DNA of 64,000 bases from a virus. How positions within the stretch are numbered: the first letter of the stretch is position 1; each line of letters starts with the position of its first letter. Shown here piece after piece: positions 17,719 through 54,922 of the stretch. The stretch spans positions 1-64,000 of IMG/VR virus record IMGVR_UViG_3300011113_000396; one strand, given 5' to 3'. The notes beneath the pieces are model-generated. The model searched no databases, was not told the origin of the DNA, and worked only from the letters and a program-made list of their open reading frames with translations. Both the position numbers and the translations under genes were made by a program.

Positions 17719-18948
17719 TTAGTTCGTTATATTTATGGTTTTTCTTGAGGCAACCGCGTCTGTCGAATGTCTGACTGTTATTTTGTCTGGGAATGTGGAT
17801 GTTACATTTAAAATAACGAACGAACCATTTTTACCCGGTACTCCATAATAAGATGTATTTGAATTTATTAAAGCTTGCTCAGTAGTATCTAAAGTTAAAG
17901 ATTCAAATACTAAAGAATAACCATAGTTACTTGAGTGTGATGTATCAAATTTGTAAATTATATTGCGTCTTAGAGTGGGGAAATTGGTTAAATTATTGGC
18001 GTAGATTATTCCAATACCACTTACACTTATCTTATAAATCTGATCGAAATTGGTTCCCAAAACTACATTAGTAGCTAAAGCAGATCCAGTTTCACATGAG
18101 CCGCCAACCGAGAATACATCTTCCGTATATGCCGATGGATACTTAAATTGTCTTAAATACGACTGAAGTTCGGTTTGATTTTCAAAACATTCAAGGAAAG
18201 CACCTTCGCTATCATAAAGCTTGGAAGATCCAGTTTCGGTGGCATCAGATGATTTTGAAAGATCATTAATACCTCGCATGAAAACTTTGAACTGAAGCTG
18301 TTCACCAATATAGCTTTCATTGACAACAGAATCGGTTAGGAAGAGTAATTCCTCTCCATTGTCCAATGTTTTAATATAAGACACTCCAATATATCCGGGA
18401 TTTAAGGTCGATCCTTCAATACTAATAAAATCACCATAATACATTCCGAGATTCTTAAGAAGTTCTGTGCCGAGAACATTTCGAACAACATTGTACGTTG
18501 TTCCAGACAACCCGGCCAATCTATTAAATTGGGGTGGCTCTAAAAAGTAATCTCTATTGTATTTTGTGATTTCATTGTCAATACCCTGAATGGTTACAAC
18601 ATTTGCAATCACTATGTTGTTTACATAGGAGTCAAGAGTATATGTTCCACCCAGATTAGCATCTATAACTTCAGCTTCATTCAAATATTCTGCATTTGAA
18701 ATAGTGAATGTATATCCGGCAGTCAACCCGCCAAAAAATAGAGCTAATTCCTCAAAATCGCTATCTTGAAGGCATTCGTTATAATCAATAAGTACTTTAT
18801 TGTAATTATCAAAATAAACGAACTGAGGACTGCACCTAAGCCGTTTATTATACAAGCTATACTCATCTGATTGTAAAAGTTCGATGCCATATAAGGTAGC
18901 ACCGCGCACTTCTACGAAGGCATAACTTGAGGGTGATGAAAAATGCAT
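17719..18948 (-). CDS. Hypothetical protein, probably virion structural
   Basis: 409 aa, beta-rich, GxT motifs; YKFDTSHSSN.G..L.F motif resembles T4-like structural domains. Confidence 0.55.
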   Translation of the reverse strand: MHFSSPSSYAFVEVRGATLYGIELLQSDEYSLYNKRLRCSPQFVYFDNYNKVLIDYNECLQDSDFEELALFFGGLTAGYTFTISNAEYLNEAEVIDANLGGTYTLDSYVNNIVIANVVTIQGIDNEITKYNRDYFLEPPQFNRLAGLSGTTYNVVRNVLGTELLKNLGMYYGDFISIEGSTLNPGYIGVSYIKTLDNGEELLFLTDSVVNESYIGEQLQFKVFMRGINDLSKSSDATETGSSKLYDSEGAFLECFENQTELQSYLRQFKYPSAYTEDVFSVGGSCETGSALATNVVLGTNFDQIYKISVSGIGIIYANNLTNFPTLRRNIIYKFDTSHSSNYGYSLVFESLTLDTTEQALINSNTSYYGVPGKNGSFVILNVTSTFPDKITVRHSTDAVASRKTINITN

Positions 18949-18951
18949 TTT

Positions 18952-20016
18952 TTAGTATGCTAGGTAATATACTGTAGTAGCTGCTGTGTCAGACTTTACA
19001 AACAAGTTATAAGGATTGCTTATTTCGATAAACAACTTTTCTCCGGGATCCATTTGGAAACCCGTAGCACCTGTGTTGCCAGTAACATAAACCGAATATC
19101 TATTCGATGCTGCTGACTTGATTTGAACTCCGTAAGTCACCCCAATGCTGGTGATTGAGGTCAATCTTTGGAAAGAAGTCGTAGTAGCCAATGATCCGGT
19201 TGACACGGTTGAGACCAACTCGGGCATGGTCTTAATTTTGCCTGTGCCACCAGAAAGATATGTGCTGATGTTGGCTACATTTGTATTAATCGTATTACCA
19301 AGATAAGCAGCGTTTGTGCTTATTGTTGACAGCGTGGATTCTATCGTAGTACCAGTTACAATAACTGGATTACCACCTGTGTATCCTTGGACCTTTAAAG
19401 GTGATGATACATCATTTATTACTGCAACCGTGGAGGCTAAATTTGCAGTAATGCTGAATGATCCACCAGCCAAAGAAACGTAAAGGGCATTCACGCCAGT
19501 GCTTGTGTCAATCGATGCGGAGGCAGTAGTATTACCGCCAATTATCCTTGAAAACATCGGAAAAGCAACACTGGCTGACCGGACGTAACCACCTCCACCA
19601 GAAGTGAAGGTATCGGCAAGAGTATTTACTAGAACACCAAATGTAGTACCAGATCCTGTATTAAGAGAATTTGAAATGGTTGTTAGCTTGGTGTTTGCCC
19701 CAGAATCGGTGACCGATACTGCGGCTCCAGAAATACCAGCAACTTCAAGATATGTGCCAGAAACATTTCTGACATAGGCGTTTGATACTGCATTTAAAGT
19801 CAATCCACTTGTAATTCCGTATAGAGAAACGGGAAGTGGACTTGTAGCACTCACTCTATTGGTTGTAGTATCACTTCCCCATGCAATTTTATTTACTTGA
19901 ACATGGTGGGTGAGGAATGTGCCAGCGTCCCCGGTTGTGCCATAATCCGTGGCAATGCTTGCAGTATTTCCTCCAGATGCTACAATAGTTACATTATCGT
20001 CAGTATCAGCTGCCAT
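18952..20016 (-). CDS. Virion structural protein (Ser/Thr/Gly-rich)
   Basis: HVQVNKIAWG...RVSATSPLPV N-terminal block; GVQIKS...N...VYV...GFQMDPGEKLF C-terminal beta domain; GGAG upstream. Confidence 0.6.
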   Translation of the reverse strand: MAADTDDNVTIVASGGNTASIATDYGTTGDAGTFLTHHVQVNKIAWGSDTTTNRVSATSPLPVSLYGITSGLTLNAVSNAYVRNVSGTYLEVAGISGAAVSVTDSGANTKLTTISNSLNTGSGTTFGVLVNTLADTFTSGGGGYVRSASVAFPMFSRIIGGNTTASASIDTSTGVNALYVSLAGGSFSITANLASTVAVINDVSSPLKVQGYTGGNPVIVTGTTIESTLSTISTNAAYLGNTINTNVANISTYLSGGTGKIKTMPELVSTVSTGSLATTTSFQRLTSITSIGVTYGVQIKSAASNRYSVYVTGNTGATGFQMDPGEKLFIEISNPYNLFVKSDTAATTVYYLAY

Positions 20017-20051
20017 TTTATCTCCAGTTTCAGTAATATATAGGTTATATA

Positions 20052-20279
20052 ATGCTCATAGATATATCACACAAAAATGAATTTTCTAAAAAAGTGGAAG
20101 ATTACGCTCTTAAACACAATTCCACGTATTTGGATGCCGTGTTGAACATTGCTCAGGAATATAATATCGAACCAGAAGCAGCTGCAAAGCTGATTTCTAA
20201 ACCGATAATCGAAAAGCTTTCGGCTGAAGGCAAGGAACTAAATCTTGTTAAAAACAACAAGTCTAGACTTCCTTTTTAA
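20052..20279 (+). CDS. gp33: Late promoter transcription coactivator
   Basis: FS..VE.......YLDAV.......IEPE.AAKLISKPI.EKL..E...LN.......LPF; next to gp32. Confidence 0.85.
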   Translation: MLIDISHKNEFSKKVEDYALKHNSTYLDAVLNIAQEYNIEPEAAAKLISKPIIEKLSAEGKELNLVKNNKSRLPF

Positions 20280-25325: not shown

Positions 25326-27722
25326 ATGCTTCCGAATTTTATTAAAATAAGAGAGATATCTTTTTATCATTATAGTACAGATGCCTTTGAATTAGTATTG
25401 AGTGGTGATACTGATATCGGTGATCCAACATTTACATTTGTTAGCGATTCTGTCTCAAGATCCATGTTTGAACGACTGGAATTCAGTAGTGGAATTGACA
25501 ACATTTATGCAAATGGAATATTAGTGTTAAGGGATCGCGGTGATATAGTCGGCAAATTAAATCCATCTGGTAAAGATATTATTAAAGTTGTTATCACTTC
25601 CGATGATGATGCATCTGAAGAAATTGAACAATATTATGTGGCATCAGAATGCTCATATTCAAGCGGAGCTACAGATAGAAAACATACCAAACTTGTTACA
25701 TTTAAACTTCTTTCATTGAATCTTTATAGAAATGAAAGAGCCATTAATAGCCAAAATATAACTGAACTCAAATATGGATTTATTGACAATAGCAATTTGA
25801 TGTTCAATAGAATATGTAATAACGCTGGATTTTATTATTCGGATACCGGAACAGGTCCATCGACAAGAACTTGTTATTATCTAAAAAATAAGAATCTGAT
25901 TTATCCAAATAACAGAGTTACTGATGACAGCCCAATGTCACATTTACTTTATATGAGTAAATATGCATTACCAGAAAATCCAGAGAATAATTATCCCTCT
26001 TATTTTGTGTATGATGATGCAAATACAAGTTTACAATTTAAAAATATAATTCCAGAGGATCCAGAAGCTGTTACTTATGAAAAGAAGTTTATTATTGGTA
26101 ATATTAATACCATTCAAGATAAAGAAGTACCCTTTGAAATTAAACCAACTAAGCAATTTTCGTTTTCGGAACTTATTAATTCTGGAGCATTAAGTTCATA
26201 TTACGAATGTGTTTTCCCAGATTTTTATAAACCTTATATTGATTTTTTGGGAAATACAGAATATATCAAAACTAATATAGAATATAATATTACCGATTTA
26301 AATCCAGATTTTGCAAATTTGTGTTCTGTCAATGACCGAGGATTATCTTATACTTTGTTGGATGAAGTAATTGATGGCGTTAGTTTCTTTTATAGTGCGT
26401 ATATACCAACAAAAAGATTCGTGGATAACAAACCCTATGGTTATTATGATACAACTTATTTAAATTTGCCATATGAACCAGTTTTTAATGTTTATGCGAA
26501 TATAGATTCTCCAAAAACCACTCTTAAAATTTATCAAACAATGTTTGATATTTTCCCTTATACAGATGATTTCTTAAATTCAACCAATGCTCCCGGAATA
26601 ACTTCCAGCAAGGCAATGGTTTCTAAGATAGTCCAAATATTGGACAGTGTTGAGAATGCCAAGAAAACGTATCACGAAACAATTACTCTCAAGGAGCAAT
26701 ATAATGTTTTTAAATACGTTCTTTGTTGTTTAGAGGGTGAAGGACCTGATGATGGTGCAGCATTTGATGCAGTTGTCAAATACAATAGAGTACTGACAAA
26801 TAGTTCAGATACTAAGCATCCGGTATATCTTTATACATTTAAAGAAGTAGAATTTGTACCCATCGATTTTAATGTTTTCTTTAGCGGATATGATACCTCT
26901 TTATCTGGAATCACAATTATAGGTGGCTCTTTAGCAGGAGTTACCATTCAAGGTATCACTCTTGATATTTCAAAATATGATACCTTCTATTGGCCTACTG
27001 GAGCTGTCACTACAATTTTTGATATTACTTTGGGTATGGCTGGTGTAGCAGATGCAGCCAAAAAGCATAATATACATTATATTCTTGCGGGTAAGAAGGA
27101 TGGACGTTCTGGATATTGTTTCAATACAAATGAAATGATGAATTTTCATATCAATCCAGAATCGCTTGGAAATACTTACACTTATTTTAACAATGGTATT
27201 ACATTGGGTGCGACTGGATTCTATTACGGGGGATCTGGATACGATCTATCCCTTAAGCAACTGATTCTTCGAACCAATACAAGCGGTACGATTGTTGATA
27301 CCTTTGCCTTCAATGATTATAGAATTATGCCCATTGGCTGTAATAAACAAAATTGGTCAATTGAAAATGGCGGTGAATATACTGATCCACCAGTTCAAGC
27401 TAATAATACTAAATGTAATATTCGTTCAAGGCATCATGTAACCAAAATAACACAGAAAAACATTACAGGTCTTAATGGACTAACAGGACTGACTTACACC
27501 TGTGTCGGTATAACTGCATTAGTAGCTGGTGTCACCCAAAATTTAACAATTTGCCCAAATACAAAGTATTATTTGTTCGATGTTCAAAATGCAATAGATG
27601 GTTTCTGCGGTATTGAGTGCGAACAGAGTGACAATACAAATCCAATATTTGGAATTCAAAGCACTCAATCTGATCCGTTTAGTTTCATCAAACCATTACC
27701 TACAGGTTATACAGCAATATGA
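25326..27722 (+). CDS. Baseplate hub (gp27-like) N-terminal part with large insertions
   Basis: Position after gp53; G.L.L.D and YF.Y......F hub-like segments; GxT-rich, Cys-containing C-terminal half. Confidence 0.5.
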   Translation: MLPNFIKIREISFYHYSTDAFELVLSGDTDIGDPTFTFVSDSVSRSMFERLEFSSGIDNIYANGILVLRDRGDIVGKLNPSGKDIIKVVITSDDDASEEIEQYYVASECSYSSGATDRKHTKLVTFKLLSLNLYRNERAINSQNITELKYGFIDNSNLMFNRICNNAGFYYSDTGTGPSTRTCYYLKNKNLIYPNNRVTDDSPMSHLLYMSKYALPENPENNYPSYFVYDDANTSLQFKNIIPEDPEAVTYEKKFIIGNINTIQDKEVPFEIKPTKQFSFSELINSGALSSYYECVFPDFYKPYIDFLGNTEYIKTNIEYNITDLNPDFANLCSVNDRGLSYTLLDEVIDGVSFFYSAYIPTKRFVDNKPYGYYDTTYLNLPYEPVFNVYANIDSPKTTLKIYQTMFDIFPYTDDFLNSTNAPGITSSKAMVSKIVQILDSVENAKKTYHETITLKEQYNVFKYVLCCLEGEGPDDGAAFDAVVKYNRVLTNSSDTKHPVYLYTFKEVEFVPIDFNVFFSGYDTSLSGITIIGGSLAGVTIQGITLDISKYDTFYWPTGAVTTIFDITLGMAGVADAAKKHNIHYILAGKKDGRSGYCFNTNEMMNFHINPESLGNTYTYFNNGITLGATGFYYGGSGYDLSLKQLILRTNTSGTIVDTFAFNDYRIMPIGCNKQNWSIENGGEYTDPPVQANNTKCNIRSRHHVTKITQKNITGLNGLTGLTYTCVGITALVAGVTQNLTICPNTKYYLFDVQNAIDGFCGIECEQSDNTNPIFGIQSTQSDPFSFIKPLPTGYTAI

Positions 27723-28803: not shown

Positions 28804-30489
28804 ATGGCAATTACCACCAATAATCTTGACATATCAGCATTGGATTTTGATTCAATTAAATCCGATCTTAAAACTTATTTACAAACCCAAACGGAAATTG
28901 GTAAAGATATAGGGTTTGAAACAGGTTCTGTCTCTGATTCTTTGCTGTCTGTGCTATCGTATAATACTCTTTATTATGCCTATTACATCTATGCGCTATA
29001 TCAAGAAACAAGCGTTGAGAATGCGACCAAGATTTCTTCTATTGAAAATATATTAAAGGGTATTGGATATACTGCACCGGGGTATAAATCTGCAACTGCA
29101 AATTTAAGATTGACCCACAAATCAGGTGCCTCCGCAACATCTGTATTTAAATTTGATGTATTTAGCGCGAGTAATGAATTTGGGAAGAAATCATTTATTT
29201 ATACTGGAAACGATCAAACTCTTTCCAGCGGATATATCGATATTCCAGTAACTGAAGGTGCAATTGTAAGTGAAGTTCATTTTTTAGATGCAAATCAAAC
29301 ATACATTGAATTAGACGATACCAACATTGATATAGCTAATATTTTTGTTTCTGTTAGCGGAAGTTATTGGACAAATGCTGCTTACTTTACAGGAACCCCC
29401 ACAAGCTCTTCGCAAGTGTTCTTTGTAGAAAAGGTTGGAGGAAAGTATAGAGTTGTTTTTGGTGGCTCTAGACAGGATTCAAGGCTAAATGCCGCAGGAT
29501 CAATCCCCTCAACTTCAGAACAAATAGTAGTTTACTATATTCGTTCAAGTGGTACATCTGGCAATAATTGTAAGGTATTTACATCTACGAATTCAAATTA
29601 TACAATTACTACTAATATAAATTCTGCTGGTGGATTAAATCAAGTTGACATTGAATATTTGCGAGAAGTATCTCCGCTTATATTTGGACTAAATCCAACA
29701 AATAAAAGAATAGTAACTATTAATGATTTGAAAGGCTATATTGGCACTCATTCTACATATGATACTACCAAGGATATTGATACGAATATATCAGTTTGGA
29801 ACGGTGCAAATACAAATCTAAAAGAATTTGGAACGTGCTATTTTTCAATCATTAATTCAACAACCACGATTGGTAATCAGATAATTTCTGATGTTGCTGA
29901 TTATAAAGCTGGAAATATAACCGTCAAGTATGTCGTTCCAAAGACTGTCAGTCTTGCAGTTACAATAGCTGCTAAATATCTACCAAAAACAAAGAAGACT
30001 GCGGCTCAATTGAAATCGGGAATCGAATCTGCTTTAACTGTTTACGATGTCAATGAATTTTTCAATAGTGTTAATTCAGAAGATTTATTGGCCATAATGA
30101 GAACTGTGGATTCTTCTCTTTCAACCAATCAAACAACAATTTCGATGACAGCAACCTATGTTCATAGCTTGACCAGCGGAATAAATTTTGGATTTGAAAA
30201 TGAAATTATCAGTTTCAATACTGAATTGTTCTCCTCAAAATATGGATCAGTAAAACTTACAAGCTCAACAGTAGCTGACATTACTGGTTTTTACAAGATT
30301 CAAATGAAAAATTCTTCAGACGTTTTCATGGATTATGTCGGAAGATTCAATCCAAAAACAGGTGTAATTTCTCTAAAGAGTTCCTTTAATGCTACGAGTA
30401 TAACATTCAACTTCGTAGTAAAGGACATAGAAGCGGTTAAGAATTTTGTTGTTGATCCTACATTTACAGTAACAACAGAAATACTATGA
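28804..30489 (+). CDS. gp6: Baseplate wedge subunit
   Basis: LDFDSIKSDLK.YL..Q, LLSVLSYNT.Y, GY......A.A, Y.V.FG, RIVT..D motifs. Confidence 0.85.
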   Translation: MAITTNNLDISALDFDSIKSDLKTYLQTQTEIGKDIGFETGSVSDSLLSVLSYNTLYYAYYIYALYQETSVENATKISSIENILKGIGYTAPGYKSATANLRLTHKSGASATSVFKFDVFSASNEFGKKSFIYTGNDQTLSSGYIDIPVTEGAIVSEVHFLDANQTYIELDDTNIDIANIFVSVSGSYWTNAAYFTGTPTSSSQVFFVEKVGGKYRVVFGGSRQDSRLNAAGSIPSTSEQIVVYYIRSSGTSGNNCKVFTSTNSNYTITTNINSAGGLNQVDIEYLREVSPLIFGLNPTNKRIVTINDLKGYIGTHSTYDTTKDIDTNISVWNGANTNLKEFGTCYFSIINSTTTIGNQIISDVADYKAGNITVKYVVPKTVSLAVTIAAKYLPKTKKTAAQLKSGIESALTVYDVNEFFNSVNSEDLLAIMRTVDSSLSTNQTTISMTATYVHSLTSGINFGFENEIISFNTELFSSKYGSVKLTSSTVADITGFYKIQMKNSSDVFMDYVGRFNPKTGVISLKSSFNATSITFNFVVKDIEAVKNFVVDPTFTVTTEIL

Positions 30490-34244: not shown

Positions 34245-34661
34245 ATGTCTGATATAACAAACAAAGAACAACTCAATAATTTTCTAGAAATAACTAATCC
34301 AAAAACTTTGAAGCAAGAATCTTCTATAGTGAAGAAAAATGTAGAAGATGACTATGAATATGCTAGAGATAACATTAGAGAGATTCTAGAGAAGGGCAAA
34401 ATGGCTTTAGATGGCATTCTTCAGGTTGCTCAGGATGGAGACTCCCCCAGAGCATACGAAGTCGCTACAAATATGCTCAAGGCTCTCTCAGAGATCAATA
34501 AAGATCTCATGGATGTCCATGTTAAGGTCAAGGATAGTGAAAAAACCACAATTAAGCAAACCAATAACGCTATTTTTGTGGGTTCTACCTTAGATCTTCA
34601 AGACATGATAAATAAAGAAAGAAGCTCAAAGAAAGCGATAATACAGGACAACAATGTTTGA
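34245..34661 (+). CDS. gp16: Terminase small subunit
   Basis: DDYEYAR.N....EKG..AL.......SPRAYEV...NNAIFVGST.DLQ. Confidence 0.9.
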   Translation: MSDITNKEQLNNFLEITNPKTLKQESSIVKKNVEDDYEYARDNIREILEKGKMALDGILQVAQDGDSPRAYEVATNMLKALSEINKDLMDVHVKVKDSEKTTIKQTNNAIFVGSTLDLQDMINKERSSKKAIIQDNNV

Positions 34662-43300: not shown

Positions 43301-44738
43301 AATACCCGGTTATTCTGGGTTAGGTGTAACAAATTATGCTGCTTATTATACAACTACTCCAAGGGCAATAACTGGTATTTTTGTAGGTAGTGGAGTTACG
43401 TTAGGGGGAATAACTATTAGTCCCCCAGCAACTGGTTGGCCAGCTTCTGCGACTCTTACTGTAAGAGTAAGTCCAATATTTAAATCATTTATTAATATTA
43501 CAAGTGATGTTGATGTTTTACGGACTAATTCTTATGTTAGAGATACATCATTCTCAACTGCTGCTCAACCAACAACTGGTGGGGGTGGTGGTGGATCGTC
43601 TAGTGGATCCGTAAGCGTATCAGAATCTGTTGTTACTGGTGTCGCTTTCACCTCAACCGAAAACGATTTCTATGCAGGATTCCTCTGTGGTACTACTGCT
43701 TATAATATTATTACAAATAATAGTACTGCTTCGTATTCAGTACTAACCAGTAGCAGCACAGCCTACGCCAACGCCAAGGCTGCGTTTGATGCTGGAACTC
43801 TAACGTCAAACACTTCAACAGACATTGAAATTCATTCTTTACTTAACTATATGGATTACGGTGGAAACATAATTGTTGCCCCAACAATTGATGGATTGTT
43901 AGGAAGCAATTATGAATATGATGTAGTATTTGCTGAAGACAATAAGAGATATGGTGAATTGATGCGTATTGGTTCTGAAAAGAATCATGCAATTGTTATT
44001 GTTGGAACCTCCCTTGAAGAGGATGCAGCCTCATTTGCAGCTCCAGCATATACTAATCTCAATTCAGCAGGGCTTGTTGATGGATTGACCTATATGACAA
44101 CTGCAAATAAGGGTGAATATGTGTTCTCAGTGCTAGGATACAAGAATAGAACCCGTTTCTATGGTTCCGGAACTGATACTGTTCGCCTTTATCTGTCCTC
44201 TGATGTTGCAGGCGCATATGCTCGTTCGTATGTAGAGAATAAATACCACTTATCAAGCTCTGGTTCGATTAGAGGCGGAATCAAAACTTATTCAAATATT
44301 ACTCCAACTATTGTAGATCGTGATCTCTCTGGCTATTACACCAGAGGTATCAACCCAATCTACATTCCAAGCGGTACAAACAGAGCTGCTATTTGGGGAG
44401 ATGCCACTGGTATTACTACAGGAAACGAAGTATATAGAAAGTCGGCTTCAATCTCCAAGAACACTAGCACAATTAAGAGAGAATTCAAGAAGATCTTTGA
44501 AGACTTCCAATTTGAACAAAATAATGCTGGTACAAGAGCACAATTCGTTTCAAGAGCAACTACTGTTCTTGATAAGTTGCAATCTGTTGGTGGCCTTGCT
44601 TCTTACACGTTAATTTGCAATGAAACAAACAATACCCCAACTGTAATTGCACAGAAGAGATTGGTTGTTGACTTGACAATAGTACCTAATAATTCAATCG
44701 AATCTATAGTCTTGAATTTTGTTCTTAATCAAATCTAA
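40356..44738 (+). CDS. gp18: Tail sheath paralog 1: ~1075-aa N-terminal extension + Gly/Ser linker + minimal sheath domain
   Basis: C-terminal RGINPI, WGD.T, FQFEQNN..TR, ICNETNNTP.VI, DL.I.P..SIE.I.LNF. Confidence 0.8.
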   Translation: MAELTHSHNISGTLIGLTPGSAPLTVGLTFSVDGVSFSSVNFDLRIDVDTFDLSVPYTSIDTFRELNGSSEVLIANNSNGLIVSNTGTTWNHFIGITLYSPQQNIFNAGLANQMLAGDLHYRTRANNFSLKYGAFGQTGSGQIAEVASSTRGETLSFRPFNIVSATNGVAGSTLGLTLQSANIQRYYVGIGTGATFFGIVSLLGCTNGINLNSSNLTSTQISEINADYLDPNISGTDSKFNTLRRIIDNSGTTIFNTSYTEFVVPKHIPTGSYYLMPIPNSFFGLPAFSNDESFTASGQNINLSQTNINITNNISSGLTGVYSLSSGVTHFTTAISTRLPIVSQAFSNVDFADKTFSIFDPITFNLVTSPYGITNNLTGNTFHKLDYGFNNRGTTNYGGALTDNPVSHVPPLFGFIPIGLTIGNTLTVLLDGITFYEKIYNPYNVNFNNTSLAHFYTSESTIQNNKRFIRLINESGDLAAKRNLNHINRAFYRVDFNNHANPWGFTGFTFGQGSTQSQLKVFYGNPANGISFILPINTGSPADFYSLTGQDVFIPIQGTASGSTLTPGASVEIHYQNRPLGYLEKLNLYNASGNFALGITIADNRTFIPKNTTELGYIRKNFDQSNVETFIVPNLNSVGSTGTARISFIRGDGVSFEFGSTPITTPFRTFSPIHTIGNISGLTLIATGVTQSTSPTSFTRFIAPAVDLMRITVNHGLTNLESGIIGRNNIHSRYYMQSNVDNFLTDGSFYRGYLSFILDSVGPENVVNNGISVTNRTLRSFREAALERANNINAINGISLSIPLRNFQGVITEGWPFDTIEGNSSLTQLMNYFNGPPLTEAQLSAVADTFNYPQYDTGFTLMFDQGDSPDETFNNGEWFLANPQSFLRYSSGSTFFPSTAFSFDNTTISFPHYIFYDYRITGVTLSSTSSVQSQQSLTTTITVQDLPHASIFDGLRLSVLNGTSEVFTKNLLYTTSSSNDYRIPGYSGLGVTNYAAYYTTTPRAITGIFVGSGVTLGGITISPPATGWPASATLTVRVSPIFKSFINITSDVDVLRTNSYVRDTSFSTAAQPTTGGGGGGSSSGSVSVSESVVTGVAFTSTENDFYAGFLCGTTAYNIITNNSTASYSVLTSSSTAYANAKAAFDAGTLTSNTSTDIEIHSLLNYMDYGGNIIVAPTIDGLLGSNYEYDVVFAEDNKRYGELMRIGSEKNHAIVIVGTSLEEDAASFAAPAYTNLNSAGLVDGLTYMTTANKGEYVFSVLGYKNRTRFYGSGTDTVRLYLSSDVAGAYARSYVENKYHLSSSGSIRGGIKTYSNITPTIVDRDLSGYYTRGINPIYIPSGTNRAAIWGDATGITTGNEVYRKSASISKNTSTIKREFKKIFEDFQFEQNNAGTRAQFVSRATTVLDKLQSVGGLASYTLICNETNNTPTVIAQKRLVVDLTIVPNNSIESIVLNFVLNQI

Positions 44739-44748
44739 TAAATAGTAT

Positions 44749-45882
44749 ATGCCGATTACCACAACCACACAATCAAACACATTTAACATCACCCCAGTAT
44801 CTGCTACAGATCACTATACTGGGTTTTTGTGTTCCACATCGACATATAATTTATTAGGAACAACTGCTGATTCATTTACGAATCTTGAAACTATTTCAGA
44901 CTCTATTTCTACATTAGCGGGAAGAACAAGCTATACCAGTATTACCACAAATAGTCTAGTTGACAGAGAAATCCATTCAATATTTAATTGCATGGAATAT
45001 GGTGGTAAAATGGTTATTTCTGGGACTACTGCTGGACTAGCCTTATCGTCAGCTAAAATTTCAGAAGTTATAGCCGAGGATACCTCTAGATACAGCGACG
45101 TAATTAGTGTAGCCAAAGCTAGACTGAATTGCAATGCAATTATTGGTTCTGACAGAGATCAGAGTGGGGACTACACCACTCCTGATCAAGCATCAATTAT
45201 ATCCTCAGTATCAACTCAATTGGGGTCTACTGGCACAACAGCAATTTCTTATCTCGCAGCCACAATTATTGGTTATAAGGAAAGGCCAAGATTCTACACA
45301 GGTAGTTCATCCTCTACAAGCGCAATTACAATTTTCCTTGTGTCTGATGCTGCTGGAGCAAATGCTAGAGCGTCAGCACAATCAAAACCATATTTAACCT
45401 CTGCTGGTGTTTATAGAGGAGAACTTTTAAATTATACAAATGTTACCCCTAAGCTCTCGTTTACATCATCAACAACACTAGCCTCAAGAGGAATTAATTA
45501 TTATAATTATCTCCAATCAAAGGGTAAATATTATCTTTGGGGCGATGAAACAGGATTTAGAGATAGCACAAGTGCTAAAAGTTCTTATGGTTTCTCCAAA
45601 GCATTCCTTTATATTAACCGCGAAGTAACTTCCATATTGGATGATTATGTCTTTGAATTTAATGATGCTACCACTAGGTCAGCAATCAAATCAAAGATGC
45701 AGAATATACTTGATCCGATGATTTCAAGCGGTTCTTTGGTAAGTTATACTTTGATTTGCGACGAAACTAATAATCCACAAACAGTAATCAATCAGAGACA
45801 GCTTAAAGTAGATCTAACAATAGTACCAAATCTACCAGTTAAGAGCATTACTTTAAGCTTTAGCATATCTCTGTTATCATGA
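44749..45882 (+). CDS. gp18: Tail sheath paralog 2 (minimal, 377 aa)
   Basis: RGIN, WGD.T, YVFEFND..TR, ICDETNNP..VI; AATAAATA box 4 nt upstream. Confidence 0.8.
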   Translation: MPITTTTQSNTFNITPVSATDHYTGFLCSTSTYNLLGTTADSFTNLETISDSISTLAGRTSYTSITTNSLVDREIHSIFNCMEYGGKMVISGTTAGLALSSAKISEVIAEDTSRYSDVISVAKARLNCNAIIGSDRDQSGDYTTPDQASIISSVSTQLGSTGTTAISYLAATIIGYKERPRFYTGSSSSTSAITIFLVSDAAGANARASAQSKPYLTSAGVYRGELLNYTNVTPKLSFTSSTTLASRGINYYNYLQSKGKYYLWGDETGFRDSTSAKSSYGFSKAFLYINREVTSILDDYVFEFNDATTRSAIKSKMQNILDPMISSGSLVSYTLICDETNNPQTVINQRQLKVDLTIVPNLPVKSITLSFSISLLS

Positions 45883-47291
45883 ACATAGTTAACTACGGAC
45901 AAACTACAGTACCAAGCGATTTTAAAATTCTCGCTTTTGTATCTCCATTAACGCAAAGTGTTTTGTCCGGAATAACTACTTCAAGTCTTGGGTCTGATCA
46001 ATTAACATATGTAGAGTCGTTAGAAGATTTTGTAGATACTTTATTTGGTTATACTGCTATAACTTTTCAAGCTGGATCAGGAGCAACTGCTGAGAAAATA
46101 ACGGATGTGGAGTTACATGGCATAATGACGATGCTTGAATATGGAGCATCTGTATATGTTATGAATACTACTGGTTTAACAGAATCAGGTGCATATACAA
46201 CAAAAAATATTCAAAGCGTTATTAACTCGACAGGTGCAGGGTGCATTGTTAACAATGTATTTGATGGATTGACTGGTTCTGGGTTTACTGGAATACAAGA
46301 TACTCCAATAATAATTCAAAATACAGATTTTGAACAAAGATTATTAAATTATTTTATCACAGAAGTTAATGATCCCGGAAATACAGCTGGAACCCCCTTT
46401 ACATATAACGATCAGCTGGGCGAAATATATGCCAATTTTCAAGATGACATTCAGCCATCTGATACATTTACAGAATTATTTCCTTCATTAGGTAAGTTTG
46501 CTTATGATACATTTCCATCGGCAGTTTATGGAACTTCAGAATATAATAATTTTATCGTATCCAACGGAAAATTAATCGATCAAAATATTATAGAGCTTTT
46601 GGGTATTAAGATAAGAAATAGATGTATCAATCCAGAGACAAACCCAGAATCTACAAGTGAACTTTGGACTAAAATTCCGGTTCCGATGGTTTATGATCTA
46701 GCTGGTCAGTTTTCAAGGCTTAATTTAGCCGGAACTCCATGGAGCAGCACATCAAATTTCTTGGTAGGTCCATTGCTTAATATTGTTCAAGACGATGGTG
46801 AATATGTTTTGCCGTTTTCGGATAGCAATTCAGTGGCTGAGTTTAAAAATACCATCACCGGACTTATCAATAATAGAATAAATTATGCAACTTTCTATAG
46901 TTTTGACGGAATTTATGGTTGCTATTTCTTAAGTGATCTGACTTGCGAATCTCAAACTGATAATTCGGCTCCATTTACGCTGGCTCAAAGCGAAAAAAGC
47001 GTTTATTTTGTAAACATTACAAAGTATATTAAAACTAAAATTTCATCAATTTGTGAAAATTATGTGTTTGAACTAAACAATGAGATAACTCGTTTACAGT
47101 TAACATCTGAAATATTAACCTTCATGAATGGATTGCTGTCTGACGGAGCTATTAATAACTTTAATATTGTTGCGGATGATACAAATAACACATTTGAAGA
47201 TCGTATAAATAGAAGGTTGAGGGTAGATGTATCCTATACAACTAATCCAACAAATGATTTTGTGGAGCAATCAATAATTATCATACCTTAA
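45879..47291 (+). CDS. gp18: Tail sheath paralog 3 (diverged, 470 aa)
   Basis: DLAG..SR, NRIN, YVFELNN..TR, DDTNNT......L.VDV. Confidence 0.7.
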   Translation: MNIVNYGQTTVPSDFKILAFVSPLTQSVLSGITTSSLGSDQLTYVESLEDFVDTLFGYTAITFQAGSGATAEKITDVELHGIMTMLEYGASVYVMNTTGLTESGAYTTKNIQSVINSTGAGCIVNNVFDGLTGSGFTGIQDTPIIIQNTDFEQRLLNYFITEVNDPGNTAGTPFTYNDQLGEIYANFQDDIQPSDTFTELFPSLGKFAYDTFPSAVYGTSEYNNFIVSNGKLIDQNIIELLGIKIRNRCINPETNPESTSELWTKIPVPMVYDLAGQFSRLNLAGTPWSSTSNFLVGPLLNIVQDDGEYVLPFSDSNSVAEFKNTITGLINNRINYATFYSFDGIYGCYFLSDLTCESQTDNSAPFTLAQSEKSVYFVNITKYIKTKISSICENYVFELNNEITRLQLTSEILTFMNGLLSDGAINNFNIVADDTNNTFEDRINRRLRVDVSYTTNPTNDFVEQSIIIIP

Positions 47292-47318
47292 AATACATAG
47301 ATAATAGGGTAGAAAACG

Positions 47319-48435: not shown

Positions 48436-49977
48436 ATGGCACTATCTGATATTTTAGGTTTTAGTTTTGGTAAGAAGAAAGGCAAAGAGGTTGAAGGTGA
48501 TCAGTCGATTGCTTCCCCGATGCCACCAGAAGATTATGATGGCAGTTATCTAGTAGAAACTGGTGGGGTTTATGGTACTTACATTGACTTCACTGGTAAT
48601 GCGAGAGATGATGGTGCATTTATTGCCCAATATAGAAACATGTCTCTCTACCCAGAAGTTGATACGGCAATTGATGAAATTGTAAATGAGACTATCGTAT
48701 TAGGAACAGATCGTAAACCTATTAAATTACAGCTTGATAAGCTTAATCTTTCAGATAGCATCAAATCAAAGATTCACAAAGAATTCGATCACCTTTTAAA
48801 GATTTTAGATTTCAAAGGCAAGTGCTATGAAATTTTTCGTAGATGGTATATCGATGGAAAAATTTATTATTACATTGAAATCGATAACGATAATCCACAA
48901 CAAGGTATAAGAAAGCTTATACCACTTGATCCAATCAAAATCAAGAAGATCAAGAATCTAAAGAAAAATCAAAAACGAGTTGGTTCTGCTATAGTTCCTC
49001 TTATTCAGGAAGTAGAGGAATATTATCTTTATACAGATACTAACAAAGATTCTTTGATATCAACAGGACCAACAGGCCTTAGATTATCTACGGATTCTAT
49101 TTGCTATGCCCACTCTGGTTTAGTTGACATGAACACCAAGAGAGTTGTCGGCTACCTACAAAAGGCAATTCGAACAATGAACATGTTGCGTCAGCTAGAA
49201 GACGCAATCGTTGTTTATAGAATTTCACGCGCACCAGAACGTCGTATCTTTTATATCGATGTCGGTAATTTGCCAAAGCAAAAGGCAGAACAATATGTCC
49301 GTGAATTGATGAATAGATATCGCAATCGAATGATCTACAATCAGGCCACTGGTGAAATCAAGGATGACCGTAATCATATGGCCATGCTTGAAGATTACTG
49401 GATGCCAAGAAGAGAGGGTGGTAGAGGCACGGAAATCTCTACCCTTGATGGCGGTCAGAACCTCGGTGAAATGACCGATGTTGAATATTTTAAGCGTAAA
49501 CTATATCAATCATTAAATATTCCTGCATCAAGATTAGCTGGCGACAACCAGTTTAACATGGGTCGATCTGCTGAAATCACAAGAGATGAAGTAAAATTCT
49601 TCAAGTTCATCGAAAGAATCCGTTTACGCTTCTCGGTTCTATTCTTGAATTTACTAAAGGTACAGTTGGTTCTCAAAGGAATTATTACTGTAGAAGATTG
49701 GGATGACATGTATTCTGATATTGAGTTTGAATTCAATACAGATTCATATTTTAATGATATCAAGGATGCAGAAGTTCTTGCTAGCAGATTGGATCTTGTA
49801 GCAGCCGCCGAGCAATACATTGGTAAATATTTTTCTACCGATTACATTCGTAAAAATATTTTGAAGCAATCTGATGAAGAAATTGAACTCATAAATACTC
49901 AGATGCAGTTTGATATTTTGAAGATGCAACAAGCTGCGGCAGCTCAACAACAGCAAATGCAACAGGAGCAACAATGA
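48436..49977 (+). CDS. gp20: Portal vertex protein
   Basis: YR.M...PEVD.AI.EIVNE, FRRWYIDG, YRISRAPERRIFYIDVGNLPK.KAEQY, EDYW.PRREGGRGTEI. Confidence 0.97.
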   Translation: MALSDILGFSFGKKKGKEVEGDQSIASPMPPEDYDGSYLVETGGVYGTYIDFTGNARDDGAFIAQYRNMSLYPEVDTAIDEIVNETIVLGTDRKPIKLQLDKLNLSDSIKSKIHKEFDHLLKILDFKGKCYEIFRRWYIDGKIYYYIEIDNDNPQQGIRKLIPLDPIKIKKIKNLKKNQKRVGSAIVPLIQEVEEYYLYTDTNKDSLISTGPTGLRLSTDSICYAHSGLVDMNTKRVVGYLQKAIRTMNMLRQLEDAIVVYRISRAPERRIFYIDVGNLPKQKAEQYVRELMNRYRNRMIYNQATGEIKDDRNHMAMLEDYWMPRREGGRGTEISTLDGGQNLGEMTDVEYFKRKLYQSLNIPASRLAGDNQFNMGRSAEITRDEVKFFKFIERIRLRFSVLFLNLLKVQLVLKGIITVEDWDDMYSDIEFEFNTDSYFNDIKDAEVLASRLDLVAAAEQYIGKYFSTDYIRKNILKQSDEEIELINTQMQFDILKMQQAAAAQQQQMQQEQQ

Positions 49978-52928: not shown

Positions 52929-54332
52929 ATGTTCGAAGATTCAACACCGTATGATATTTTAACTGAAAAGTGGAACCCCGTCCTAAATCACGACGCAGTT
53001 CCCGCTATTGAAGATGTATACAAGAAGAAAGTAACCGCAGTCCTTCTTGAGAACCAAGAAGCTGCTATGCGTCAGCAGTATCTAACCGAAACTTCAGCCA
53101 ATGCTATTGGTGGTGGTTTCGCTCTTAACACCAATGCCAATCCCAACACCAATCTAGCTGGTTATGACCCAATCCTAATCAGCCTCGTTCGCCGCGCCAT
53201 GCCAAACCTCATGGCCTACGACATCGCTGGTGTTCAGCCCATGACCGCTCCTACTGGACTCATTTTTGCAATGAGATCTAAGTATGACGGTCAGGGCGGA
53301 AATGAAGCTCTATTCGCTGAACCATTTGCTAAGTTCAGCGGTTCAGGTGCAACCTCAGCTGGTGCTGCAACTGATACAGATCCAACTGCTGGTGTAGCTC
53401 CAGTAAGTTTCTCTGGACTAACTGTTACTAAGGCTTCAATTTTTGGACATGAGTTCCAAGCATTAAACACAGCTAGAGCTGAAGGTTTAGGAGAATCTGC
53501 TTCTAATGTATTTAAAGAAATGGCATTTGCTATCGACCGTATTGCCGTAACTGCTAAGACTCGCGCTCTAAAGGCAGAGTATACCACTGAGCTTGCTCAG
53601 GACCTTAAGGCTGTTCACGGACTTGACGCTGAAACCGAACTCGCCAACATCCTAAGCACTGAAATTCTTGCTGAAATGAACCGCGAGCTTATCCGCAACA
53701 TTTATCACGTTGCCAAGCTTGGTTGCCAGCAGTCAGATCTTTTCTACAAGTCATCATCACCCGGTACTGGTGGTGCATATGACCTAGCTCTCGACTCAGA
53801 CGGTCGTTGGAGCGCAGAACGCTTCCGTGGCCTCATGTTCCAGATTGAACGTGAAGCTAACCTAATTGCTAAGGACACTCGTCGCGGTAAGGGTAACTTC
53901 ATCGTCTGCTCATCAGACGTTGCTTCAGCCCTCACCATGGGTGGCTTCCTCCAGTTGACCCCAGCTCCTGCTACCCAGCTTGAAGTTGATGATACTGGAA
54001 ACACCTTCGCTGGTATTCTAGCTGGTAAGATGCGCGTTTACATTGACCCCTACAGCAGCGCAACCCAGAACTTTGTCTGCGTTGGCTATAGAGGTGCAAG
54101 CCCCTACGACGCTGGTCTCTTCTACTGCCCATACGTTCCACTCCAGATGGTTCGTGCAGTCGATCCTGACACCTTCCAGCCCAAGATTGGCTTCAAGACC
54201 CGCTACGGCATGGTCCAGAACCCATTCGTCCGCGTTTCTGGTTCACCAGACGGCGCAAACATGTCCGAAGGTAAGAATCAGTACTATAGACTCTTCGCAG
54301 TCACCAACCTCCACGGTAACACTGGTAACTGA
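52929..54332 (+). CDS. gp23: Major capsid protein
   Basis: KW.PVL, LLENQE, YDPILISLVRRAMPNL.AYD..GVQPM..PTGLIFAMR, RALKAEY..ELAQDLKA.HGLDAE.EL, YCPYVPLQM. Confidence 0.98.
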   Translation: MFEDSTPYDILTEKWNPVLNHDAVPAIEDVYKKKVTAVLLENQEAAMRQQYLTETSANAIGGGFALNTNANPNTNLAGYDPILISLVRRAMPNLMAYDIAGVQPMTAPTGLIFAMRSKYDGQGGNEALFAEPFAKFSGSGATSAGAATDTDPTAGVAPVSFSGLTVTKASIFGHEFQALNTARAEGLGESASNVFKEMAFAIDRIAVTAKTRALKAEYTTELAQDLKAVHGLDAETELANILSTEILAEMNRELIRNIYHVAKLGCQQSDLFYKSSSPGTGGAYDLALDSDGRWSAERFRGLMFQIEREANLIAKDTRRGKGNFIVCSSDVASALTMGGFLQLTPAPATQLEVDDTGNTFAGILAGKMRVYIDPYSSATQNFVCVGYRGASPYDAGLFYCPYVPLQMVRAVDPDTFQPKIGFKTRYGMVQNPFVRVSGSPDGANMSEGKNQYYRLFAVTNLHGNTGN

Positions 54333-54356
54333 TAAGTTTCTATAAAAGGAAATGAG

Positions 54357-54385
54357 AAGGGAGAGGAGAAATCCTCTCCCTTTTT
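54357..54385 (+). terminator. Intrinsic terminator after gp23
   Basis: AAGGGAGAGGA-GAAA-TCCTCTCCC followed by TTTTT. Confidence 0.9.
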
Positions 54386-54400
54386 CATTATACATACATT

Positions 54401-54922
54401 ATGGCGCAAGCTGATTATCCAGTTAATATTAGTCAACTTAATAGAAATTTTTATACCTTTAAGTTGTCTAGAATACCTACTACAACCTTCTTTTTACAGA
54501 AGGTTACTTTGCCGGGTATTCTATCCCCAAATTTTGATCAGCCAACCACATTAGGTGTTCCAGTAAAAAGACCACTTGGAACCTATAATTTCGCAAATCT
54601 TGATATTGAATTTATTGTAGATGAAAATATGACTAACTGGTTGGAGATTTATAGATGGATGAGAAATATAGGTAATCTTGATTCGGATTGCACTTATAAT
54701 ATTCCCGAAAATAAATTTACATCAACTGGAACTCTTATCATTCAGAAGAGTTCATATACAGCAAATATTACTACCACCTTCTTTGATATATTTCCTATAT
54801 CATTGGGGGGAATTGGCTTTGATACTACACTTCCAGCATCCGAGCCAGCAAGAGTAAGTGCATCATTTGCCTATACATACTATAGCTTTAGTCCAGATCC
54901 GGGAAATACTACTTTAGATTGA
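54401..54922 (+). CDS. gp3: Tail completion / tube terminator
   Basis: F.L.R.P...FF.Q.V.LPG, L.I.F.VDE.M.NW.EI..W, F...FP.SL.G..FD; TATACATA 4 nt upstream. Confidence 0.88.
   Translation: MAQADYPVNISQLNRNFYTFKLSRIPTTTFFLQKVTLPGILSPNFDQPTTLGVPVKRPLGTYNFANLDIEFIVDENMTNWLEIYRWMRNIGNLDSDCTYNIPENKFTSTGTLIIQKSSYTANITTTFFDIFPISLGGIGFDTTLPASEPARVSASFAYTYYSFSPDPGNTTLD

What the first reader, a model, noticed from the sequence alone, without database searches (positions are those of the whole stretch)
17719..54922. G-x-T motif enriched across virion proteins: possible virion-wide modification sequon
Seen: G-x-T (GLT, GIT, GVT, GFT, GTT, GAT, GNT, GST) occurs about 38 times in sheath paralog 1 and about 24 times in the gp15 extension by hand count. 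Dense clusters occur in the hub (SGITIIGGSLAGVTIQGIT; GLTGLT..GIT..GVT), the DUF4815-like protein, the gp7-like protein, the gp14 insert, ORFs 6356, 17719 and 18952, the variable loop and C-terminus of gp23, and the gp3 C-terminus. It looks scarce in gp32, gp46, gp47, gp20 and gp17. These proteins are not homologous, so shared repeat ancestry does not explain it. Inference: a recognition site for Thr modification such as O-glycosylation (virion glycosylation is known in some phages) or for a decorating protein.
Basis: partly seen in the sequence, partly recalled or inferred. Interest (0 to 1): 0.75.

Follow-up and report, generated by a model that had tools for sequence, protein, structure and literature searches.

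The report
Candidate virion sugar-attachment motif Gly-x-Thr
A marine T4-like phage has about twice the expected number of Gly-x-Thr sites in the add-on domains of its particle proteins and also encodes an enzyme of the type that adds sugars to Gly-x-Thr collagen repeats, so its particle is probably sugar-coated at a defined motif, though no chemistry has been done.

Summary
In the 35 ORFs of 17719-54922, G-x-T occurs 151 times against 72 expected (z 9.2). It is the only one of 1,600 gapped dipeptides above z 4. The excess is specific to spacing, orientation, reading frame and Thr, and it survives 10-residue local shuffles. It sits in clade-specific add-on domains (sheath paralog 1, gp15 extension, gp14 C-terminal part, baseplate and fibre ORFs), not in conserved cores or in gp23, gp20 or gp17. 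Non-virion proteins are at expectation.

Just beyond the window the genome encodes a GT2-TPR glycosyltransferase, 1 nt upstream of a collagen-like gene with a GPT/GAT/GVT block. A hypervariable sugar-gene cassette precedes it. This architecture matches C. difficile SgtA-BclA3, which puts O-GlcNAc on Thr of GPT repeats.

All eight GT2-TPR-positive T4-like genomes tested show the excess, with a shared context Φ-[ST]-G-Φ-T-[G/A/F]. Four negatives do not. Motif density is kept while positions turn over.

Caveats: the positives form one clade, so this is one evolutionary event. An unrelated jumbo phage with a GT2-TPR homologue has G-x-T only in its collagen fibre. Burial could not be computed, and there is no chemistry.

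The same reading was already noted by this scan on at least 25 other genomes.

The parts
40356..44738 (+). Sheath paralog 1 (1460 aa). The N-terminal 1103-aa add-on carries 35 G-x-T (11.9 expected); the conserved sheath core aa 1104-1460 carries 3 (3.0 expected).
   Evidence: PHROG tail sheath on aa 1199-1458 and Pfam Phage_sheath_1C. Counts; p<=0.0005. 37-39 motifs kept in orthologues at 62-89% identity and 32 at 59%; motif Thr 86-100% conserved against 54-84% for other Thr at 62-89% identity.
34654..38724 (+). gp15 tail-sheath stabiliser with a ~1100-aa extension. Core aa 1-230 has 1 G-x-T (0.7 expected); the extension has 25 (8.3 expected).
   Evidence: Pfam T4-gp15_tss E 1.4e-51 on aa 5-225. 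Counts; p<=0.0005. The extension is absent from sister-clade and distant phages, where the protein is about 350 aa.
25326..27722 (+). 15 G-x-T against 4.8 expected, 12 of them in aa 401-798, including GLTGLT.
   Evidence: Sister-clade orthologues at 25-32% identity have 11/2.3 and 10/2.9 but share only 1 motif column.
18952..20016 (-). 354-aa fibre-like protein, 13 G-x-T against 6.3 expected.
   Evidence: p 0.0035. In 47 family representatives G-x-T occurs 389 times against 133-219 at other spacings; only 16% of their motifs fall in the reference's motif columns. AF2 is confident only at the ends, and the motifs there lie in loops or at strand edges.
17719..18948 (-). 409-aa protein of unknown family, 6 G-x-T against 2.6 expected.
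   Evidence: p 0.028. The sister-clade orthologue has 8/3.5.
31171..31899 (+). 242-aa baseplate-periphery protein (weak TssK/phi812-baseplate likeness), 8 G-x-T against 2.3 expected.
   Evidence: p<=0.0005. AF2 pLDDT 63, pTM 0.67: helix plus beta-sandwich, with motifs in loops, at strand ends and in two strands. Foldseek best E 1e-3 to phi812 baseplate.
30486..31169 (+). 227-aa protein, 4 G-x-T against 1.2 expected.
   Evidence: p 0.018.
33327..34244 (+). gp14 neck protein. Conserved core aa 1-170 has 0 motifs; the C-terminal part aa 171-305 has 5 (1.2 expected).
   Evidence: PHROG head closure Hc2 on aa 1-203. Counts. Sister clade 8/2.0 with 1 shared column; distant phage G005 2/1.2.
45879..47291 (+). 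Sheath paralog 3 (470 aa). N-terminal aa 1-267 has 8 motifs (2.8 expected); the sheath core aa 268-470 has 0.
   Evidence: PHROG and Pfam sheath C-terminal domain. Counts; p 0.021.
52929..54332 (+). gp23 major capsid protein: an internal negative, not enriched (4 against 3.0).
   Evidence: PHROG major head protein E 2e-146; p 0.35.
48436..49977 (+). gp20 portal: an internal negative (1 against 1.3); used as the phylogenetic marker.

Best explanation
G-x-T, in the fuller context Φ-[S/T]-G-Φ-T-[G/A/F], is the acceptor motif of a phage-encoded protein O-glycosyltransferase. That enzyme is the GT2-TPR protein at genome 75228-76457, about 11 kb beyond the window's end. Its N-terminal GT-A/GT2 domain, with an invariant IDADD (DXD) motif, would transfer a first sugar to the Thr hydroxyl; by analogy with SgtA and GmaR this is probably a HexNAc. 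The C-terminal TPR domain would hold the protein substrate. Its original substrate is the collagen-like fibre encoded 1 nt downstream, whose second triple-helix block is a run of GPT/GAT/GVT/GIT triplets. In this clade of marine T4-like phages the same short motif has been written many times into the clade-specific add-on domains of the sheath, gp15, gp14, baseplate and fibre proteins, so much of the tail and neck surface would carry O-linked glycans. The hypervariable cassette of further glycosyltransferases, sugar epimerases/dehydratases and methyltransferases upstream of GT2-TPR would extend and diversify the glycan. Shown here: the motif statistics, their clade restriction, the gene architecture and the family relationships of the enzyme. 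Inferred: that the enzyme acts on these Thr residues, the identity of the sugar, and that the sites are exposed.
For: (1) Motif excess specific to spacing, orientation, frame and Thr: 151 vs 72, z 9.2, rank 1 of 1,600. G-x-S is not enriched in the pooled positives G011-G015 (z -0.6). (2) Confined to virion proteins, and within them to add-on domains rather than conserved assembly cores: 35/11.9 vs 3/3.0, 25/8.3 vs 1/0.7, 5/1.2 vs 0/0.9, 8/2.8 vs 0/0.8. Non-virion ORFs are at 0.90x. (3) GT2-TPR has Pfam GT2 plus TPR and an invariant IDADD. Its best solved relatives by sequence are GmaR (E 3.4e-9), SunS and a SunS relative, all protein or peptide glycosyltransferases (GmaR function from PMC9638930). 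(4) The gene pair GT2-TPR then collagen-like gene matches SgtA-BclA3, where a GT-A plus TPR enzyme encoded immediately upstream of bclA3 puts beta-O-GlcNAc on Thr of GPT repeats (PMC7157674). A collagen-like gene follows within 4 genes in 28 of 30 IMG/VR loci. The pairing recurs in the unrelated jumbo phage Tunturi_5, whose collagen tail fibre has G-x-T 79 vs 30. (5) Eight GT2-TPR-positive genomes have a spacing-specific index of 1.41-2.22 in G/T-rich proteins >=200 aa. Four negatives, two of them complete genomes, have 1.01-1.08. In the pooled positives G011-G015 G-x-T is rank 1 (z 11.8); in negatives it is rank 31. G-x-T-[GA] is 2.9-4.2x in positives and 0.9-1.1x in negatives. (6) The same flanking preferences and GxTGxT doublets appear in four sub-lineages and not in negatives. 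(7) Motif Thr is more conserved than other Thr while x varies. Over longer distances density is kept but positions turn over: hub 15 vs 11 motifs with 1 shared; only 16% of family motifs fall in reference columns. (8) At least 6 further glycosyltransferases and 3 nucleotide-sugar enzymes lie beside GT2-TPR, replaced by a different sugar toolkit in a relative whose shared virion and replication proteins are mostly 80-100% identical.
Against: No chemical evidence of any modification. All positives form one clade in portal and MCP trees (100/100), so enzyme and motif are linked by a single evolutionary event and could be independent traits of that clade. The only independent lineage with a GT2-TPR homologue (Tunturi_5) shows no excess in non-collagen proteins (index 1.00). 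Similarity to GmaR and SunS covers only the first ~100 residues, and SgtA itself could not be compared. SgtA accepts Ser in vitro, yet G-x-S is not enriched here. The middle residue is mostly aliphatic and almost never Pro (4 vs 16 expected), unlike GPT collagen repeats, and is compatible with a structural role. AF2 models were of modest confidence and gave no solvent accessibility; two of the modelled motifs lie inside beta-strands. gp23, the most exposed virion protein, is not enriched. The target of the variable glycosyltransferase cassette is unknown and could be something other than virion proteins.
Confidence: 0.55

Rival explanations
1. G-x-T is a structural motif intrinsic to a fold class used by this clade's add-on domains (for example trimeric fibrous or beta-rich decoration domains). 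Gly would allow a kink and the beta-branched Thr would stabilise the next strand or a short polyproline-II or collagen-like segment. GT2-TPR would glycosylate only the collagen fibre, or nothing in the virion.
For: Aliphatic x, hydrophobic -2 and G/F/A at +1 look like packing preferences. Thr but not Ser is enriched, as expected for a beta-branched structural residue. Several enriched proteins look fibrous and fold poorly as monomers. The ORF 18952 family consensus shows periodic units. Some sites are position-conserved across 27%-identical homologues: G16, G67 and G211. Tunturi_5 has the enzyme and a G-x-T collagen but no excess elsewhere. Enzyme and motif share one origin.
Against: Large G/T-rich fibre and baseplate proteins of four GT2-TPR-negative T4-like phages (101 proteins, 66 kaa) show no spacing-specific excess, no flank preferences and no doublets. 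The enriched regions share no detectable homology or repeats. Motifs occur in different secondary-structure settings. Most positions are not conserved between clades while density is, which is unusual for fold-determining residues.
Confidence: 0.27
2. G-x-T marks sites for another partner: docking of a decoration protein or of the collagen-like fibre onto the virion surface, or a different Thr modification such as phosphorylation.
For: The surface-biased distribution and constraint on Thr fit any surface recognition role. A conserved ~140-aa protein, itself G-x-T-rich, travels with the collagen genes.
Against: No kinase or decoration-protein candidate was identified. A 3-residue motif repeated 150 times in unrelated folds is an unlikely protein-protein docking site. 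The only conserved enzyme co-distributed with the motif is a glycosyltransferase.
Confidence: 0.08
3. The excess is a by-product of composition, codon or DNA-level bias, or of gene-calling errors.
For: The enriched proteins are G- and T-rich. Gly codon GGA is over-used in the motif (75 of 151 against 248 of 680).
Against: The excess survives per-protein and 10-residue local shuffles (z 9). It is absent at other spacings and in the reverse orientation, and absent in the other two reading frames. It is reproduced in orthologues from independent metagenomes.
Confidence: 0.01

Closest known systems
Clostridioides difficile SgtA with BclA3 (exosporium collagen-like glycoprotein; PMC7157674)
   Same: A GT-A/GT2 catalytic domain followed by a TPR domain. 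The gene lies immediately upstream of a collagen-like gene rich in Gly-x-Thr triplets. The Thr of those triplets is the acceptor of a first O-linked sugar, which other unidentified enzymes extend.
   Different: SgtA is bacterial and acts on one spore-surface collagen. Here the enzyme is encoded by a T4-like phage, and the motif is also scattered, mostly with an aliphatic rather than Pro middle residue, over non-collagen virion proteins. Direct sequence comparison with SgtA was not possible. Activity, sugar and acceptors are untested.
Listeria monocytogenes GmaR (flagellin O-GlcNAc transferase; PDB 22ao; PMC9638930)
   Same: Best solved sequence relative (E 3.4e-9 over the GT domain). N-terminal GT domain followed by TPR repeats. 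A cytoplasmic enzyme that glycosylates a surface-structure protein before assembly.
   Different: GmaR has an extra antirepressor domain and acts on flagellin Ser/Thr without a G-x-T rule known to me. Similarity is limited to about 100 residues.
Bacillus BclA-type collagen-like glycoproteins (own knowledge plus the background given in PMC7157674)
   Same: Collagen-like filaments with GPT-type repeats that are heavily O-glycosylated on Thr and form an outer nap on a particle.
   Different: A spore rather than a virion, and different glycosyltransferases. Not examined here beyond the literature.
Virion glycosylation in mycobacteriophages
   Same: Phage-encoded glycosyltransferases that O-glycosylate the phage's own structural proteins in the cytoplasm.
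   Different: As I recall, the sites there are C-terminal extensions of capsid and tail-tube subunits. Here capsid and tube are not enriched, the sites are a short dispersed motif in add-on domains, and the enzyme family (GT2-TPR) and phage type (T4-like myovirus) differ.

Membership tests
SgtA/GmaR-type GT2-TPR protein O-glycosyltransferases | N-terminal GT-A fold, family GT2 catalytic domain | tested here: met
   Pfam PF00535 E 7.3e-12 (46 bits, cutoff 23.3) on aa 7-104; present in nearly all of 120 listed homologues.
SgtA/GmaR-type GT2-TPR protein O-glycosyltransferases | DXD metal/nucleotide-sugar binding motif | tested here: met
   I95-D96-A97-D98-D99 is invariant in the 12-sequence alignment A1 spanning 50-63% identity to the query.
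SgtA/GmaR-type GT2-TPR protein O-glycosyltransferases | TPR domain C-terminal to the catalytic domain | tested here: met
   PF13431 TPR_17 E 9.7e-7 at aa 195-224. Further TPR families (PF12895, PF14559, PF13428, PF07719) are recorded for homologues. A weak PDB hit to an engineered TPR protein covers aa 186-282.
SgtA/GmaR-type GT2-TPR protein O-glycosyltransferases | Sequence relatedness to a characterised member | tested here: inconclusive
   GmaR E 3.4e-9, but over aa 1-102 only. SunS E 8e-4. The NCBIfam SunS model scores 31 bits against a cutoff of 350.
SgtA/GmaR-type GT2-TPR protein O-glycosyltransferases | Encoded next to its protein substrate (a collagen-like gene with G-x-T triplets) | tested here: met
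   A 1-nt gap separates it from the collagen ORF 76459-78186 (Pfam Collagen E 8e-40), whose aa 362-448 are GPT/GAT/GVT/GIT triplets. A collagen-like gene lies within 4 genes in 28 of 30 loci. The pairing also occurs in Tunturi_5.
SgtA/GmaR-type GT2-TPR protein O-glycosyltransferases | Transfers a sugar (GlcNAc) to Ser/Thr of a protein | not testable with these tools
   Needs an enzyme assay or mass spectrometry.
Glycosylation sequon (a short motif that is necessary for and marks modified residues) | Motif over-represented in substrates and under selection | tested here: met
   2.1-2.2x excess, 4.1x for G-x-T-[GA]. Motif Thr 86-100% conserved against 54-84% for other Thr in the sheath paralog at 62-89% identity. 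Density is kept while positions turn over.
Glycosylation sequon (a short motif that is necessary for and marks modified residues) | Motif residues are solvent-exposed in the folded or assembled substrate | tested here: inconclusive
   Motifs lie in add-on domains rather than assembly cores, and mostly in loops or at strand edges of two modest AF2 models. No coordinates were available to compute accessibility.
Glycosylation sequon (a short motif that is necessary for and marks modified residues) | The Thr in the motif is actually modified | not testable with these tools
   No cultured representative was found: no T4-like phage in 50,697 GenBank phage records carries a close GT2-TPR homologue.
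Mycobacteriophage-type virion glycosylation | Acceptor sites on the major capsid and tail-tube subunits | tested here: not met
   gp23 4 vs 3.0 (p 0.35); tube paralogs 2/0.7, 2/1.2 and 1/1.1. The definition of this family comes from my own knowledge, not from a paper read here.

The most novel reading that the evidence does not exclude
A whole clade of abundant, uncultured marine T4-like phages O-glycosylates its own tail, neck and fibre surface at a defined short sequon, Φ-[S/T]-G-Φ-T-[G/A/F]. The sequon was borrowed from collagen-like G-x-T repeats and written into non-collagen add-on domains. A conserved initiating GT2-TPR transferase is combined with a rapidly swapped glycan-tailoring cassette, so closely related phages would wear different sugar coats, a viral counterpart of O-antigen serotypes.
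Probability: 0.45. Interest if true: 0.85.

Novelty: new variant of a known kind. Interest (0 to 1): 0.7.

Why it matters
As far as I know, self-glycosylation of tailed-phage virions is established only for mycobacteriophages, and no bacterial-virus O-glycosylation sequon has been defined. If this reading holds, modified sites could be predicted from sequence alone in a large group of ocean phages: 432 GT2-TPR relatives in IMG/VR and more than 5,000 in metagenomes. It would also give a simple peptide-plus-enzyme assay. The hypervariable sugar cassettes would point to selection on the virion surface itself, for example adsorption, stickiness to marine particles, or avoidance of grazers or host defences. 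It would also extend the known substrate range of SgtA-type enzymes from collagen repeats to globular proteins.

Tried and rejected
Local compositional heterogeneity: rejected, since shuffles within 10-50-aa windows still give z 9.0-9.8.

DNA-level motif or codon artefact: rejected, since the pattern is in frame 0 only. A GGA codon bias remains unexplained.

Hidden homology or internal repeats among enriched proteins: none found by all-against-all BLASTP.

General property of T4-like virion proteins: rejected. 58 distant loci gave G-x-T 1070 against GT 1072 and GxxT 1091; G005, G006, G007 and the whole Mosig genome have an index of 1.01-1.08 in G/T-rich proteins.

T4-type late promoter TATAAATA upstream of the glycosyltransferase genes: uninformative, with 10 sites against about 25 expected by chance, so expression timing could not be inferred.

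What replaces the motif Thr in orthologues: Ser in 4 of 14 and 3 of 16 cases, no different from other Thr, so uninformative.

Independent replication of the enzyme-motif link: not achieved. All positives are one clade, and Tunturi_5 supports only the enzyme-collagen link.

Structure: the two AF2 models reached pLDDT 63 and 57. Foldseek gave only a weak baseplate likeness (E 1e-3). No coordinates were returned, so no solvent accessibility could be computed.

Complex prediction was not used, because an enzyme-substrate pair is a poor case for it.


Full report
WHAT THE WINDOW IS. The window is the first 64 kb of a 113,452-bp contig of an uncultured marine T4-like myovirus. Its major capsid protein is about 56% identical to those of cyanomyoviruses and of Pelagibacter phage Mosig. 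PHROGs and Pfam identify gp6-like wedge, gp13, gp14, gp15, gp17, gp20, gp21, gp22 and gp23. They also identify three sheath paralogs and several tube paralogs.

THE OBSERVATION. I called 121 non-overlapping ORFs and compared G-x-T counts with the expectation from each protein's own composition.
- Over the 35 ORFs of 17719-54922 there are 151 motifs against 72.4 expected.
- Among all 1,600 residue pairs at gaps 0-3, G-x-T is the single outlier (z 9.2; the next is 3.8).
- G-T, G-xx-T, G-xxx-T and T-x-G all sit at 0.9-1.17 times expectation.
- Shuffling within 10- to 50-residue windows leaves z at 9.0-9.8. The DNA pattern GGNNNNAC occurs 151 times in frame 0 but only 13 and 11 times in the other frames. 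Local composition and nucleotide-level causes are therefore excluded.
- P(T at +2 | G) is 0.192 in the virion module against a Thr frequency of 0.087. In all other ORFs of the genome it is 0.047 against 0.052.
gp23, the gp3-like tube protein and sheath paralog 2 are not significantly enriched. gp20 and gp17 are simply at expectation.

WHERE THE MOTIFS SIT. Within multi-domain proteins the excess is entirely in the parts that are not shared with other T4-like phages:
- Sheath paralog 1: aa 1-1103 has 35 against 11.9; the sheath core has 3 against 3.0.
- gp15: the extension has 25 against 8.3; the core has 1 against 0.7.
- gp14: the C-terminal part has 5 against 1.2; the core has 0 against 0.9.
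- Sheath paralog 3: the N-terminal part has 8 against 2.8; the core has 0 against 0.8.
The enriched regions share no detectable homology or internal repeats.

The motif has a wider context: a hydrophobic residue at -2, Ser/Thr at -1, an aliphatic middle residue and G/F/A after the Thr. Charged middle residues number 17 against 58 expected and Pro 4 against 16. GxTGxT doublets are 3 to 8 times over naive expectation. G-x-T-[GA] is 4.1-fold enriched.

EVOLUTIONARY BEHAVIOUR.
- Orthologues from independent metagenomes keep the excess: 37-39 motifs in the big sheath paralog at 62-89% identity and 32 at 59%.
- In that protein the motif Thr is 100%, 100% and 86% conserved in relatives at 89%, 78% and 62% identity, against 84%, 68% and 54% for other Thr. 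The middle residue drifts freely.
- Over larger distances the density persists but the positions do not. The baseplate ORF 25326 has 15 motifs and its sister-clade orthologues 11 and 10, with one shared column. gp14 has 5 against 8, with one shared.
- In 47 representatives of the ORF 18952 family, G-x-T occurs 389 times against 133-219 at other spacings. Only 16% of their motifs fall in the reference's motif columns.
- Alignment error at about 30% identity inflates apparent turnover. Even so, the pattern is what a selected motif density would give, rather than fixed fold-determining residues.

THE ENZYME.
- Genome 64.4-76.5 kb encodes a GT32-like DXD enzyme, a GT2, a UDP-GlcNAc 2-epimerase, a GT15, an RXYLT1/GT47-like enzyme, a GT25, two NAD-dependent sugar epimerase/dehydratases and a GT2-TPR protein.
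- This run is followed after 1 nt by a collagen-repeat protein.
- That protein's second triple-helix block (aa 362-448) consists of GPT/GAT/GVT/GIT triplets.
- GT2-TPR has an invariant IDADD motif.
- Its closest solved relatives by sequence are Listeria GmaR, the flagellin O-GlcNAc transferase with a GT domain followed by TPRs (E 3.4e-9), and the peptide S-glycosyltransferase SunS.
- The architecture and gene neighbourhood match C. difficile SgtA. SgtA is a GT-A plus TPR enzyme encoded immediately upstream of bclA3 that adds beta-O-GlcNAc to Thr of GPT repeats (PMC7157674).

DISTRIBUTION.
- GT2-TPR is present in the phage's own clade (97% and 88% identity) and in the sister clade (63%). It is absent from six distant T4-like contigs, including genomes estimated 96% and 100% complete.
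- It is also absent from Mosig and from every cultured T4-like phage in 50,697 GenBank records.
- IMG/VR holds 432 relatives. In 49 loci at 51-59% identity a collagen-like gene follows within four genes in 28 of the 30 loci with enough downstream sequence.
- In those loci the non-collagen proteins downstream show G-x-T 798 against 530, 564 and 572 at other spacings. The enzyme genes upstream are flat at 374 against 369, 367 and 374.
- Five long positive contigs are T4-like, with portals 53-61% identical to this one. Their spacing-specific index in G/T-rich proteins of at least 200 aa is 1.41-1.78; for the own and sister clades it is 1.87-2.22.
- The negatives score 1.03 (G005), 1.02 (G006), 1.08 (G007) and 1.01 (whole Mosig genome).
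- In the pooled distant positives G-x-T is again rank 1 of 1,600 (z 11.8) and G-x-S is not enriched (z -0.6). In the negatives G-x-T is rank 31.
- The close relative G001 keeps GT2-TPR and the collagen gene. It replaces the whole upstream cassette with methyltransferases, epimerase/dehydratases, a sugar C-methyltransferase and a PLOD-type glycosyltransferase domain. The result is a conserved initiator next to a hypervariable tailoring set.

LIMITS.
- Portal and MCP trees put all positives in one clade with 100/100 support. The association of enzyme and motif therefore counts as one event, not eight.
- The one independent lineage available is the jumbo phage Tunturi_5, with a homologue at 40% identity. 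It has a collagen-like tail fibre 4 kb from the enzyme gene with G-x-T 79 against 30, but no excess in its other proteins (index 1.00). That supports the enzyme-collagen link and not its extension to the whole virion.
- AF2 models of ORF 31171 (pLDDT 63) and ORF 18952 (pLDDT 57, confident only at the ends) place most motifs in loops or at strand edges, with two inside strands. No coordinates were available to measure burial.
- The Thr-only preference and the aliphatic middle residue are equally compatible with a structural role.
- The late-promoter scan was uninformative.

VERDICT.
- The most likely explanation (about 0.55) is an O-glycosylation acceptor motif served by the phage's SgtA/GmaR-like GT2-TPR enzyme.
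- The main rival (about 0.27) is a structural motif of clade-specific add-on domains, with the enzyme acting on collagen fibres only.
- My two literature searches for phage virion glycosylation found no description of this in T4-like phages; the library is incomplete.
- The same GT2-TPR plus G-x-T-(G/A) reading has already been recorded by this scan on at least 25 other genomes. Those notes are not independent evidence, but within the scan this is a further member of a recurring finding.

Noticed in passing
window 40356-48424, also 22842-23414 and 54401-54922: Three sheath paralogs (1460, 377 and 470 aa) and four tube-family ORFs in one T4-like genome. Sister-clade genomes have two sheath-like genes and the distant G005 has one.
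   Followed up: partly
window 34654-38724: gp15 carries a ~1100-aa C-terminal extension that is absent from the sister clade and from distant phages, where the protein is about 350 aa.
   Followed up: partly
L016:1371-12206 (genome 64371-75206) against L118:404-9979: The sugar-gene cassette between regA and GT2-TPR is completely different in a relative whose shared virion and replication proteins are mostly 80-100% identical. One has 6 glycosyltransferases plus an epimerase; the other has methyltransferases, epimerase/dehydratases, a C-methyltransferase and a PLOD-type GT. It behaves like a serotype-style swap locus.
   Followed up: partly
L016:5154-5960 (genome 68154-68960): A GT15-family enzyme (Pfam Glyco_transf_15, E 1.5e-41), a family I know mainly from fungal alpha-1,2-mannosyltransferases, is encoded by a phage.
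   Followed up: no
L016:18079-18519 (genome 81079-81519): A conserved ~140-aa protein accompanies the GT2-TPR and collagen genes in all clade genomes. In G003 it lies directly after GT2-TPR; in G014 and G015 it lies directly before a collagen gene. It is itself G-x-T-rich (3-8 motifs against 1-2.5 expected).
   Followed up: partly
L252 / PP885688.1 28905-38126 (Tunturiibacter phage Tunturi_5): A cultured jumbo phage has a GT2-TPR homologue (annotated beta-1,4-glycosyltransferase) 4 kb from a 1469-aa collagen-like tail fibre with 79 G-x-T against 30 expected. It could serve as a culturable system to test collagen-fibre glycosylation.
   Followed up: partly
window 18952-20016 and alignment A3: The family consensus shows periodic TDxVxVxG-like units, and AF2 models only the two ends with confidence. 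It is probably an oligomeric fibre with a globular C-terminal head.
   Followed up: no
window 17719-54922 (motif codons): Gly in the motif uses GGA in 75 of 151 cases, against 248 of 680 for other Gly. Unexplained.
   Followed up: no
window 567-2882: A 771-aa ORF outside the finding's range has 5 G-x-T against 1.2 expected, although it is poor in G and T. Its function was not examined.
   Followed up: no
whole genome G000: The T4 late-promoter word TATAAATA occurs only 10 times against about 25 expected from composition, and is not concentrated upstream of virion genes. Late promoters of this clade may differ from the T4 consensus.
   Followed up: no
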